Positions 3,001-6,000 of a stretch of 6,180 nt of DNA are shown here, in pieces (within the stretch, counting starts at the first letter, position 1; each line of letters opens with the position of its first letter). This DNA comes from a virus (taxonomy: Duplodnaviria; Heunggongvirae; Uroviricota; Caudoviricetes). Where the stretch lies: the IMG/VR virus record IMGVR_UViG_2778261567_000020. One strand, 5' to 3'. A program made the position numbers.

Positions 3001-6000
3001 CAGTAAATGTGAACCATTGGGGGATAAACGTTACAGCAAAAGTAAAATATCTTTCGCCGGGGCGGTGGGAGGGCAGTTTAACCTGAACGAAACCGTTGTT
3101 ATTGATGTGACATACGAATATTCAGGTTATGGTCAGTGGCATGCCAGTGGCTTTGGTGCAGGCATCGGTTTTAAATTCTGACGGCCAAAATACGACGGTT
3201 TTAGTCTGCCCGTAGCATCATTGCTGCGGGCTTTTTTTATTATTGGTGGAAGAGTATGACAGTAAAAATTTCTGGCGTGCTTAAAGATGGCACCGGCAAA
3301 GCGGTACCTGGATGCACGATTGAACTCAAAGCCCTGCGGACGACGGAGACGGTGATTGTCACCACCGTGGCAGAGGGAGAGCCGGGAGAAAACGGCAGTT
3401 ACAGTATGGATGTGGAGCCGGGGTATTACCGTGTGACGCTGAACACAGAGGGGTATCCACCGGTGCACGTGGGAAACATCACCGTCAGTGCTGAATCAGC
3501 ACCGGGGACACTGAATACGTTTTTGCTGAATGAAGAGACTGCGGCGGCGTACCCGAAGGCGCTGGTCGAACTGGAGGCCGCTGCCGCGGAAATTCTGGCG
3601 CGCGCGGAAGCGGCGGCGCGTAGTGCGGAGGTGGCGGAGGCAAAGGCAGCGAATGCCCGGGGGCCAAAGGGAGATAAGGGTGACCCGGGACCTCAGGGGG
3701 TACAGGGTCCGGCAGGCCCGACAGGAGCAACCGGCCCCGCGGGGCCACGGGGTGAACGTGGTGAACAGGGCATACAGGGGCCAGTTGGTGCAACCGGACC
3801 GGCGGGGCCGCGAGGAGAGCAGGGTATTCAGGGACCGGCAGGTCCGGTCGGTCCCCGAGGAGAAACCGGTGCCAGAGGAGAAAAGGGCGACCCGGGCGGC
3901 CCGCCAGGGCCGAAGGGTGACACAGGCGCTAAAGGAGATGCCGGACCTGCTGGCCCTGCCGGAGAGAGAGGGCCGACAGGCGAAGCTGGACCTGCGGGTC
4001 AACCGGGGCACAAAGGAGACCCGGGTCCTGCTGGCCCACAGGGACCGGCGGGAGAGCGGGGACCTCAGGGGCCGCAGGGTGTAGCTGGTCCTGTCGGCCC
4101 GGCAGGCGAACCGGGAGCGAAAGGCGATAAAGGTGACCCCGGACCTGCTGGTCCTCAGGGGCAGCCCGGTCCTCAGGGACCTGCTGGCGAAACCGGACCC
4201 GCGGGTGAACCCGGGCCAAGAGGTGAGCCCGGTCCACAGGGACTTAAAGGTGACAGGGGCGAGCCAGGACCTACAGGCCCACAGGGACCGGCGGGAGAGC
4301 GGGGACCTCAGGGGCCACAGGGTGTAGCTGGTCCTGTCGGCCCGGCAGGCGAACCGGGAGCGAAAGGCGATAAAGGTGACCCCGGAGGAACCGAACTGCT
4401 TGCTTCAGCCAATACATGGACTCAACCACAAACTATTAATGGCGATTTGACGGTAACCGGAAACGGCTCATTTAACGACGTTCAGATCCGCTCGGATAAA
4501 CGCAACAAGCGAAATCTGGTAAAACTGGATAATGCGTTAGATCGTCTGGAGGCACTTACTGGTTATCTTTACGAGATACAGTACTCTGCCGACGGTTGGC
4601 AAACGTCGGTTGGTTTAATTGCTCAGGATGCACAAAAAGCATTGCCTGAACTGGTAACTGAAGACGCAGACGTTATATCTGGTGAAAAACGTCTGCGTCT
4701 TAACTACAACGGCATAATTGCATTGTTAGTCGAAGGCTTTAAAACACTTCGTCATGAGATTAAAGAACTCCGGGAGAAGTGAACGACAGCTGTTGTAGTT
4801 TCTGGTTTCTACTGAATTTAAATTGTGGGGTGACACTCACCCCACGCATTCAGAAGGGGGAGATGAGATGGGGGTAACATCGGGATGGGTAGGCTCTTCG
4901 GCTAAGAGCGAAACAGGTGAGCAGTGGATGGGAGCCGCCGGAACCAAACTGGGATTGGATAAACCTTTTATGATGAGTCAAATGGTGGGGCGAGCTATGG
5001 GTTGTAAAATAGAAACCGCTTACTATAAATGGAACTCTTCGGATCAAGTTGAAAACTGGGGGGCGGTTGGAGCTGATTGGCCATTAGAAGAAAAAAGCAA
5101 AGGGACAATTACAAACGCTGAAAACTGTGGTTCTGGGAGACTGGTGGGGGCTGTCGTTACACTTTCTCACTTTTTGACGAACTCTACACCGACAGCTGCT
5201 GTTTATTTAGCCGGTGGTAAAGCAGGTAACATCACCGTAAACGTAGGTGGTGCCACACAAACCATGATTTATCAGGGCGTTGTTAGTGGGTTCCAGTATT
5301 ACTGGTCAGGTTCTGTTAGTTCCGCTTTCGTGGAGGCAATGAAAAAGACGGGAGTAACCCAGGATCTAAAAATTAGTTAAATGGTAAATGAATAATTTTA
5401 AAAACTTCACGTTCTACATACCGGAGACGCCGGATATATAGGATATTGTTTTAAGTTGCCAGAGAAATTTTTCCGGACGGATGCTGATAATAATGATGTG
5501 CCAATGACGGCAGCATCATTGATGGCACTGAGTGAAGCGGCAGAGCAGGCGATGTTCAGAAAAGGGATGGAAATCCACGTAAGGCAGCGCACCATGAAGA
5601 AGGAGCTGGAAAAGCTGAGCAGTGCGGATGAGATACTGGCATACAGGGTTGGCTGGGTGCAGGAATAACAGACAAAAAGATGGGGAGCATCACCTCCCCC
5701 ATGAACTGAGTCAATTATACACTTGTGAAGTATTTACTATGCGAATAAATACTGTCACGGAAAGTGCAGGCCTGGATGTGATGGAAATCATGTTTCCGGC
5801 GCATCCTGTTGATGTGGATGATTTTTCATATTTCCGGAAGTCCGTATTTTGTCCGGGCGCGGTTGCATGCTTCATTCGCGATGCCATTTTTGCCGGATAT
5901 AGCGAGTTTTCTGCATGTTGACGTTTTTTAGTCAGTGAATAAACCAGTCGTCCGCTGTTTCCCAGACATTTTGAAGCGTTTCTTGTACAAACTCTTGCGC

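What the first reader, a model, noticed from the sequence alone, without database searches (positions are those of the whole stretch)
4033..4386. Recent 111-bp in-register duplication inside the collagen domain
Two copies with 110/111 identity, 243 bp apart, encode the same 37 residues. Such a recent tandem-like duplication within a triplet-repeat array is a substrate for RecA-mediated or slipped-strand expansion and contraction, which would change fiber length in steps of 81 residues. This could be a length-variation mechanism for the fiber. It also creates a risk of assembly collapse in short-read data.
Basis: seen in the sequence. Interest (0 to 1): 0.45.

Follow-up and report, generated by a model that had tools for sequence, protein, structure and literature searches.

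The report
Copy-number-variable repeat in phage fibre shaft
The two near-identical 111-bp copies are real and mark an 81-residue unit in the collagen-like shaft of an E. coli prophage tail fibre, present once, twice or three times in otherwise identical alleles; this is an ordinary, already known kind of repeat-driven length variation.

Summary
Window 4033-4143 and 4276-4386 match at 110/111 nt, in codon and Gly-X-Y register, 243 bp start to start. This is far beyond the collagen-coding background. They lie in the shaft of an EPclD-type prophage side tail fibre (CDS 3256-4782).

The predicted 81-residue steps exist in nature.
- Alleles of this gene with exactly 243 bp less (one unit) occur on at least three haplotypes, with five different junctions inside the module. 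All are from draft assemblies.
- A fibre gene of Stx2-phage-86-type podophages shares this cassette. It has two units (2022 bp) or three (2265 bp) in complete genomes and phage genomes, with no other substitution.
- The middle copy of the three-unit alleles is the chimera that misaligned recombination predicts.

"Recent duplication" needs correcting. The two-unit layout is older and is shared across gene families. The near-identity here reflects homogenisation, and similarity stops sharply at the 111-bp borders.

The window's own length change is different: a 63-bp in-frame deletion between 11-bp repeats.

Variable collagen lengths in these proteins, and collagen repeats as phage recombination hotspots, are already published. 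Whether the length changes matter functionally is untested.

The parts
3256..4782 (+). Side tail fibre CDS (508 aa), EPclD-type. Layout: prophage tail fibre N-terminal domain (aa 1-132), Ala/Glu-rich linker, collagen-like shaft (aa 136-379), short tip, and Peptidase_S74 intramolecular chaperone (aa 413-468 and onward).
   Evidence: ORF list. Pfam hits PF08400, PF01391, PF13884 and PF13620. PHROG 366 'tail fiber protein'. Annotated 'prophage tail fiber N-terminal domain-containing protein' in L001-L003.
3661..4389 (+). Collagen-like (Gly-X-Y) coding stretch, about 243 residues. It has one register break, GDPGGPPG, at aa 211-218 (nt 3886-3909).
   Evidence: Translation and Gly-X-Y run search. 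[quoted passage not shown]
4033..4143 (+). Repeat copy 1 (111 bp, 37 aa). It is of the 'last-copy' sequence type at all informative sites except G at module position 42 (nt 4074).
4144..4275 (+). Spacer (132 bp, 44 aa) between the copies. Copy plus spacer makes the 243-bp unit that is gained or lost.
   Evidence: The spacer is present once in two-unit alleles, twice in three-unit alleles and is absent from one-unit alleles.
4276..4386 (+). Repeat copy 2 (111 bp). It is directly followed by the non-collagen tip ([11 protein letters not shown]...).
3955..3965 (+). Single remaining copy of the 11-bp direct repeat CCTGCCGGAGA. It marks a 63-bp (21-aa) in-frame deletion relative to every other allele found.
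   Evidence: The window differs from L001 by 0 substitutions and one 63-bp gap. L001 has two repeat copies at CDS 700-710 and 763-773.
4387..4782 (+). Fibre tip and C-terminal intramolecular chaperone. The putative autocleavage motif SDKRNK starts at aa 413 (nt 4492).
   Evidence: PF13884. Match to phage S16 long tail fibre distal subunit 6f45_A, E = 3.5e-13, with SDKRNK aligned to SDRRIK.
4868..5380 (+). Gp38-like tail fibre adhesin gene (170 aa from the ATG at 4868). It is the likely receptor-binding cap of this fibre.
   Evidence: PF21721 Gp38_N. PHROG 1121 'tail fiber adhesin'. Annotated as a 513-bp gene in L001-L003. Start codon and Shine-Dalgarno sequence read.

Best explanation
The two 111-bp copies are the conserved cores of a 243-bp (81-residue) unit in the collagen-like shaft of a lambdoid prophage side tail fibre. 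The fibre runs from an N-terminal tail-attachment domain through a linker and a Gly-X-Y shaft to a short tip and a self-cleaving C-terminal chaperone. A separate Gp38-like adhesin is encoded next.

The copies are long, close together and in register. Misaligned homologous pairing between them adds or removes whole units. This could be unequal crossing-over between sister or co-resident copies, replication slippage, or phage recombinase activity. Non-reciprocal exchange (gene conversion) keeps the copies alike.

Shown here: alleles with 1, 2 and 3 units exist; junction copies are chimeras of the first and last copy; and these changes occur on backgrounds with 0-2 substitutions.

Inferred: the enzymatic pathway; that the near-identity in this window comes from conversion of an older, diverged first copy; and that each unit changes shaft length by about 23 nm (81 x about 0.29 nm per residue of triple helix) without touching either end of the fibre. 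Shorter in-frame deletions at 10-16-bp direct repeats, including the window's own 63-bp deletion, add finer length variation.
For: - Repeat reality and significance.
- Domain architecture.
- One-unit alleles of the same gene are the upstream flank of copy 1, one module and the downstream flank of copy 2. The gap is exactly 81 aa or 243 bp.
- One-unit alleles occur on at least three haplotypes: L013 (0 substitutions versus L001), L010, L011/L012 and L015 (2 substitutions each versus L003), and L018/L019 (a third background).
- Their crossover intervals differ: module positions 1-31, 31-42, 42-75, before 42 and after 42.
- In the Stx2-phage-86-type fibre gene, 18 complete genomes carry the 2022-bp two-unit allele and 8 carry a 2265-bp three-unit allele.
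- Three phage genomes (phi296, phi367, phi419) have three units. Phi315, Stx2 phage 86, POCJ13 and Stx1_2409 have two.
- Three-unit alleles show 0 substitutions versus the two-unit allele over 2 kb.
- The middle copy is last-copy type on the left and first-copy type on the right. The switch lies between positions 31-42 in L004 and 42-75 in L005/L024. The reciprocal chimera is the one-unit allele of L010-L012.
- L014 has a two-unit allele whose first copy is converted only at positions 75-84.
- Other deletions sit at short direct repeats.
- Published context: collagen domains of EHEC prophage collagen-like proteins vary in length by multiples of three residues (PMC3368898). Collagen-like repeats have been proposed as phage recombination hotspots (PMC7242381).
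Against: - All one-unit alleles come from draft, presumably short-read assemblies. The three complete genomes with this gene, one IMG/VR contig and the window all have two units. Some one-unit alleles could therefore be collapsed assemblies.
- No three-unit allele of this particular gene was found. The expansion evidence comes from the paralogous podophage fibre that shares the cassette.
- No rate was measured, so 'fast' rests only on the absence of accompanying substitutions.
- L004 and L005 differ at one site. They could be one expansion followed by a point change or a conversion, rather than two independent events.
- Nothing here shows that fibre length affects adsorption or host range.
- J is annotated as incomplete in the closest prophages. 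The gene may sit in a defective prophage and drift.
Confidence: 0.8

Rival explanations
1. The copy-number differences arise between prophages rather than within the gene. The collagen, tip and repeat cassette is swapped by ordinary mosaic recombination between co-resident prophage fibre genes, and alleles simply inherit however many units the donor had.
For: Window 3958-4515 is 97.8% identical to the fibre of Stx2-phage-86-type podophages, although the N-terminal and chaperone parts differ. EHEC genomes carry several such fibre genes, up to 6 places per genome. Sharing of collagen shaft plus C-terminal domain between Stx podophages and lambda-like side fibres is reported in bioRxiv 10.64898/2026.04.10.717836. 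L018/L019 look like a mosaic haplotype.
Against: Three-unit, two-unit and one-unit alleles differ by nothing else over 1.3-2.3 kb. The chimeric copies are made only of the sequence states of the allele's own first and last copies. An outside donor would usually bring linked substitutions. Strain 8E (L002) carries the module only in this gene.
Confidence: 0.1
2. It is a fixed, old duplication with no ongoing dynamics. The apparent one-unit alleles are short-read collapses, and the near-identity is maintained by selection on the encoded 37 residues.
For: Every long or complete record of this exact gene has two units. One-unit alleles occur only in drafts.
Against: Two-unit versus three-unit alleles occur in complete genomes and in phage genomes.

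Protein-level selection does not explain identity at synonymous sites (110/111 nt).

Several one-unit junctions combine states that never occur together within 31-43 nt in the known two-unit parents. Examples are L011/L012 (G31 with A42) and L013 (copy-1 flank with A42). A k-mer collapse of those parents could not produce them. This last point is my inference about assembler behaviour and was not tested here.

The same one-unit alleles appear in an NCBI assembly and a Logan assembly (L011 and L012, L016 and L017). I could not tell whether each pair comes from one isolate.
Confidence: 0.06
3. The duplicate in the window is itself an assembly artefact or a chance match in low-complexity collagen-coding DNA.
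For: The region is repetitive and GC-rich. Tandem Repeats Finder did not flag it.
Against: The next best in-frame pair is 73/111, and shuffles never exceed 27 nt. The identical arrangement occurs in independent complete genomes, phage genomes, one IMG/VR contig and one metagenome contig.
Confidence: 0.02

Closest known systems
EPclD-type EHEC prophage collagen-like proteins (Ghosh et al. 2012, PMC3368898), e.g. Stx2-86_gp21 (673 aa, collagen domain 322 aa)
   Same: [quoted passage not shown] That paper already states that collagen domain lengths differ by multiples of three residues within an architecture. The listed length of Stx2-86_gp21 (673 aa) equals that of orf21 of Stx2 phage 86 (L025), whose DNA is identical to the two-unit allele L006.
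   Different: As far as my term searches of the paper showed, it gives lengths only. It has no analysis of the 243-bp unit, of chimeric copies or of copy-number alleles on identical backgrounds. Three-unit alleles (754 aa) exceed the collagen domain it calls by far the longest. The window protein combines the PF08400 N-terminus with this cassette.
Collagen-like region polymorphism of Bacillus anthracis BclA (Sylvestre et al. 2003, J Bacteriol 185:1555, cited in PMC10470788) and of the Legionella Lcl collagen-like adhesin (PMC6460258, PMC2639597)
   Same: In-frame repeat number in a collagen-like region varies between strains. For BclA the paper's title reports variation in exosporium filament length. 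The principle is the same: repeat-driven length change of a triple-helical spacer.
   Different: Here the protein is a phage fibre, and the unit is 243 bp, of which only 111 bp are kept alike.
Collagen-like repeats in Streptococcus thermophilus phage antireceptor genes and in virophage ORF8 as recombination or deletion hotspots (Duplessis and Moineau 2001, as cited in PMC5601072; PMC7242381)
   Same: These are viral attachment proteins in which collagen-like repeats promote in-frame deletions and module exchange. In the Guarani virophage an 81-nt deletion in the collagen-like gene accompanied a host-range change.
   Different: The hosts and proteins differ, and the repeats are short (27 nt). 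No link between length and host range has been shown for the E. coli fibre.
T2/S16-type long tail fibre tip: gp37 with C-terminal intramolecular chaperone plus gp38 adhesin (PDB 6f45)
   Same: The C-terminal 115 residues align with S16 gp37, including the Ser-x4-Lys motif. The next gene has a Gp38 N-terminal domain.
   Different: Here the shaft is a collagen triple helix on a lambdoid side fibre, not a T-even beta-structured fibre. Cleavage and adhesin binding are inferred, not shown.

Membership tests
EPclD-type prophage collagen-like side tail fibre (PMC3368898) | N-terminal prophage tail fibre domain (PfN, PF08400) | tested here: met
   PF08400, aa 1-132, E = 8.2e-39
EPclD-type prophage collagen-like side tail fibre (PMC3368898) | [quoted passage not shown] | tested here: met
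   PF01391, E = 5.3e-39. Gly-X-Y runs at aa 136-216 and 218-379, with GDPGGPPG at aa 211-218.
EPclD-type prophage collagen-like side tail fibre (PMC3368898) | C-terminal region not homologous to PfC (PF06820) | tested here: met
   Pfam reports Peptidase_S74 and no PF06820 hit.
EPclD-type prophage collagen-like side tail fibre (PMC3368898) | Trimeric coiled-coil (PCoil) between PfN and the collagen domain | not tested
   An Ala/Glu-rich stretch at about aa 95-135 is visible in the translation. No coiled-coil prediction was run.
Peptidase_S74 intramolecular chaperone domain | Sequence match to the domain, and the Ser...Lys motif at its start | tested here: met
   PF13884, aa 413-468, E = 6e-12. 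SDKRNK aligns with SDRRIK of S16 gp37 in 6f45_A.
Peptidase_S74 intramolecular chaperone domain | Autoproteolytic release after trimer folding | not testable with these tools
   This needs protein expression and mass spectrometry.
Intragenic tandem-repeat (VNTR-like) length polymorphism | Two or more near-identical in-frame copies at a fixed period | tested here: met
   110/111 nt at period 243. Period 243 is also seen in L001-L007, L020-L022, L024 and L025.
Intragenic tandem-repeat (VNTR-like) length polymorphism | Copy number differs among otherwise near-identical alleles | tested here: met
   One versus two units with 0-2 substitutions. Two versus three units with 0 substitutions. Caveat: the one-unit alleles come only from draft assemblies.
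Intragenic tandem-repeat (VNTR-like) length polymorphism | Junction copies are recombinants of neighbouring copies | tested here: met
   Chimeric middle copies in L004, L005 and L024, and chimeric single copies in L010-L012.
Contingency locus or programmed variation (phase-variable repeats, DGR, invertible fibre segments) | High-frequency reversible switching within a clone, with a selectable phenotype | not testable with these tools
   No population or rate data are available.
Contingency locus or programmed variation (phase-variable repeats, DGR, invertible fibre segments) | Dedicated machinery nearby (reverse transcriptase with template repeat, or a site-specific invertase) | tested here: not met
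   None of the window's ORFs matches such a family in Pfam or PHROGs. Only the 6.2-kb window was examined.

The most novel reading that the evidence does not exclude
The 243-bp unit is kept as a selected length dial. Conversion maintains a 111-bp homology core so that lysogen or phage populations continually throw off fibres that are about 23 nm shorter or longer. This would let the same Gp38-type adhesin reach its receptor through surface layers of different thickness (O-antigen, capsule). It would be a contingency mechanism for reach rather than for specificity, shared as a cassette between siphophage side fibres and Stx podophage lateral fibres.
Probability: 0.1. Interest if true: 0.6.

Novelty: new member of a known kind. 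Interest (0 to 1): 0.3.

Why it matters
The repeat explains a good part of the length spread of collagen-like fibres among EHEC and STEC prophages, including Stx-converting phages. It gives a concrete unit of change: 243 bp, 81 residues, roughly 23 nm.

In practice it is a site where short-read assemblies and gene-by-gene typing schemes can miscount. It is also a ready-made PCR size marker for these prophages.

If fibre reach turned out to affect adsorption through O-antigen or capsule, the cassette would be a simple natural handle for tuning phage fibres. Nothing here shows that. As it stands, this is a clear but unsurprising example of repeat-mediated variation.

Tried and rejected
- **Whole-unit fresh tandem duplication.** Rejected. 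Outside the 111-bp core, the upstream 132 bp and the spacer match at 56%, within the in-register collagen background (my first version of this control used a wrong offset and was redone). A 33-nt motif encoding [11 protein letters not shown] recurs just before and just after copy 1 (27/33). It hints at an older, larger periodicity, but I could not make that rigorous.
- **Inverted repeats I2/I3/I5/I6 inside the collagen region.** I judged these a by-product of GGN-CCN-rich coding sequence and did not pursue them.
- **Exact-sequence look-up** of the window protein and of the 529-, 673- and 754-aa alleles in the 15-billion-protein collection. None was found (two of the queries start with a translated GTG, which may explain their absence). 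This gave no count of independent occurrences.
- **Scan of species-representative genomes** for a 26-nt core of the module: 0 hits. IMG/VR and metagenomes gave only two loci each, with no allele of more than two units.
- **Search for the window's exact 63-bp-deleted allele elsewhere.** Not found. L021 and L001-L003 all carry the long form.
- **Telling RecA-dependent from slippage pathways.** Not possible from sequence.
- **Not run.** No structure prediction was run, because a monomer model of a collagen triple helix would not bear on the question.
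Full report
**1. The observation**

The window carries two 111-nt stretches, 4033-4143 and 4276-4386, that differ at one base (4074 G, 4317 A; synonymous Pro codon). They encode the same 37 residues.
- The start-to-start distance is 243 nt (27 Gly-X-Y triplets), with a 132-nt spacer between the copies.
- Within the collagen-coding stretch (3661-4389) the next best in-frame 111-nt pair matches at 73/111.
- In 300 shuffles of the 9-nt units, no repeat with at most one mismatch exceeded 27 nt.
- The block is sharply bounded. The 132 nt upstream of copy 1 match the spacer at 56%, which is ordinary for in-register collagen-coding DNA (49 +/- 4%).

**2. What the gene is**

The copies lie in CDS 3256-4782 (508 aa). 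Its domains are as follows.
- A prophage tail fibre N-terminal domain (PF08400, aa 1-132).
- An Ala/Glu-rich linker.
- A collagen-like shaft (aa 136-379) with one register break, GDPGGPPG.
- A 34-residue tip.
- A Peptidase_S74 intramolecular chaperone domain starting at SDKRNK (aa 413).

The C-terminal 115 residues align with the long tail fibre distal subunit of phage S16 (6f45_A, E = 3.5e-13). The next gene (4868-5380) has a Gp38 N-terminal domain and matches a 'tail fiber adhesin' family.

Upstream lie the C-terminal part of J, two small moron-like ORFs and an Ail/Lom gene. Downstream lie a DUF4376 remnant and a DinI-like gene. This is the tail end of a lambdoid E. coli prophage. Only three of 5426 complete E. 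coli genomes carry the full-length gene.

The architecture is the one Ghosh et al. 2012 named EPclD (PMC3368898).

**3. Do relatives vary in length?**

They do, and in the predicted step.

*Same gene.* The three complete-genome alleles (L001-L003, 529 aa) and one IMG/VR contig (L021) have both copies.

A protein search returned close alleles of 448, 445 and 424 aa that lack exactly 81 residues. They consist of the upstream flank of copy 1, one module, and the downstream flank of copy 2.

DNA fetched for these alleles gives the following.

| Locus | Closest two-unit allele | Substitutions | Gap |
|---|---|---|---|
| L013 | L001 | 0 | 243 nt |
| L016/L017 | L001 | 2 | 315 nt (243 + 72) |
| L010, L011/L012, L015 | L003 | 2 each | 243 nt |
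| L018/L019 | third background | 15-16 versus L002 | 243 nt |

Seven informative sites distinguish a diverged first copy (G31 T42 T75 C77 G79 C84) from the last copy (C31 A42 C75 A77 C79 A84). The single modules switch type at different places.
- L015 switches before position 31.
- L011/L012 switch between positions 31 and 42.
- L010 switches between positions 42 and 75.
- In window-type parents, L013 switches before position 42 and L018/L019 switch after it.

*Paralogous gene.* The same cassette (window 3958-4515, 97.8% identical) sits in the lateral fibre gene of Stx2-phage-86-type podophages (Traversvirus tv86). Among complete genomes carrying that gene at 99% identity or more:
- 18 have a 2022-bp two-unit allele;
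- 8 have a 2265-bp three-unit allele;
- one has a 1959-bp allele with a 63-bp deletion inside the spacer;
- two records, both of strain 2013C-3277, have the gene cut by IS600.

Phage genomes phi296, phi367 and phi419 have three units. Phi315, Stx2 phage 86, POCJ13 and Stx1_2409 have two.

The three-unit alleles and the 63-bp-deleted allele show no substitution relative to the two-unit allele over 2 kb. Their middle copy is last-copy type on the left and first-copy type on the right. The switch lies between positions 31-42 in L004 and between 42-75 in L005 and phage phi296. This is the product expected from misaligned pairing of the last copy with the first copy. The reciprocal product, first-copy left and last-copy right in a one-unit allele, is what L010-L012 carry.

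**4. Recent duplication or homogenisation?**

The two-unit layout with a first copy differing at six sites is shared by L003 and by all podophage-type alleles. It therefore predates the window's allele.

In the window, L001, L002 and L021, the first copy has last-copy states at every informative site except position 42, where it has a third base, G. L014 shows an intermediate state: its first copy is converted only at positions 75-84.

The simplest reading is non-reciprocal exchange from the last copy into the first, followed by one substitution. This is an inference. The sharp borders of identity fit it better than a fresh duplication of the whole 243-bp unit would.

**5. Other length changes**

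The window's own allele equals L001 with 0 substitutions and one 63-bp gap. The gap lies between two copies of CCTGCCGGAGA, of which one remains at 3955-3965. I found this deleted form nowhere else.

Further in-frame deletions occur at 10-16-nt direct repeats: 72 nt in L016, 63 nt in L009, 102 nt in L014, and 36, 76 and 3 residues in P0001, P0004 and P0009. Those of 34 and 76 residues remove the one-residue register break.

Frame preservation follows from the 9-nt periodicity of the homology. It does not by itself show selection.

**6. Caveats**

All one-unit alleles are from draft assemblies, so collapse must be considered.

Against collapse, several junctions combine states that are more than 10 but fewer than 43 nt apart and never co-occur in the known two-unit parents. 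A k-mer path through those parents could not create them. The same one-unit alleles also appear in an NCBI assembly and a Logan assembly (L011 and L012, L016 and L017). I could not tell whether each pair comes from one isolate. This is an argument about assembler behaviour, not a test.

The two-versus-three-unit evidence does not depend on drafts. No rate, no pathway (RecA, slippage or phage recombinase) and no phenotype were measured.

**7. Comparison with what is known**

- Variable collagen-domain lengths in EHEC prophage collagen-like proteins, in multiples of three residues, and the conserved interruption are published (PMC3368898).
- Collagen-like repeats have been proposed as recombination hotspots in phages. 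An 81-nt deletion in a virophage collagen-like gene accompanied a host-range change (PMC7242381).
- Strain-to-strain repeat polymorphism in collagen-like regions is documented for BclA, where it alters filament length (Sylvestre et al. 2003, cited in PMC10470788), and for Legionella Lcl (PMC6460258).
- Sharing of collagen shaft and C-terminal domain between Stx podophage fibres and lambda-like side fibres is noted for phi24B (bioRxiv 10.64898/2026.04.10.717836).

What is added here is the specific 243-bp unit, its 1/2/3-copy alleles on identical backgrounds, and the chimeric junctions.

**8. Verdict**

The label 'recent duplication' should read 'recently homogenised older duplicate'.

The feature is a new example of a known kind. 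Interest is modest (0.3). The adaptive 'length dial' reading is possible but unsupported (probability about 0.1).

Noticed in passing
window 3955-3965 (junction), relative to L001 CDS 700-773: The window's fibre allele is identical to that of strain FHI_NMBU_11 (L001) except for a 63-bp (21-residue) in-frame deletion between two copies of CCTGCCGGAGA. This short form was found in no other record.
   Followed up: yes
window 4387-4782 and 4868-5380: The fibre ends in a chaperone domain matching phage S16 gp37 (6f45) and is followed by a Gp38-like adhesin gene. This is a T2/S16-style tip-plus-adhesin arrangement on a lambdoid collagen-shaft side fibre. The adhesin gene's true start is probably the ATG at 4868, not the TTG at 4823 listed by the ORF finder. 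Its first 44 residues are 66% identical to the 181-aa protein encoded after the podophage-type fibre (L004 3583-4128), while the rest is unrelated.
   Followed up: partly
window 3958-4515: Homology (97.8%) with the lateral fibre gene of Stx2-phage-86-type podophages starts inside the collagen shaft. It stops just after the SDKRNKRN motif at the start of the chaperone domain. The mature tip is therefore shared while the chaperone parts differ.
   Followed up: partly
window 7-1425, 1450-1731, 1728-2345: The J tail-tip protein here lacks the C-terminal Ig_GpJ_C domain that J has in relatives L010/L011. J is annotated as incomplete in L001/L002. Two small ORFs (PHROG 557 'outer membrane protein' and PHROG 425 'membrane associated protein') sit between J and the lom-like gene. 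The prophage may be defective or may use a different tip.
   Followed up: no
window 5456-5668: A 70-residue ORF matches only the C-terminal end of a 222-aa DUF4376 tail fibre-associated protein that is intact in L003/L010. It is a gene remnant. In L001 an IS1414 element sits just downstream.
   Followed up: no
L008 (NZ_CP027331.1, strain 2013C-3277) 1605-2809: An IS600 element is inserted inside the first repeat copy of the podophage-type fibre gene, splitting it into two annotated fragments.
   Followed up: no
L009 (NZ_CP077447.1) CDS position about 1403: A 63-bp in-frame deletion lies inside the spacer between near-identical 16-nt repeats (CCCGGTCC[T/A]CAGGGAC). The background is otherwise identical to the two-unit allele. 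The size matches the window's deletion, but the site is different.
   Followed up: yes
window 4012-4044 and 4129-4161: A 33-nt motif encoding [11 protein letters not shown] occurs just before copy 1 and again at the end of copy 1 running into the spacer (27/33 identical). It may be a trace of an older, larger periodic structure.
   Followed up: partly
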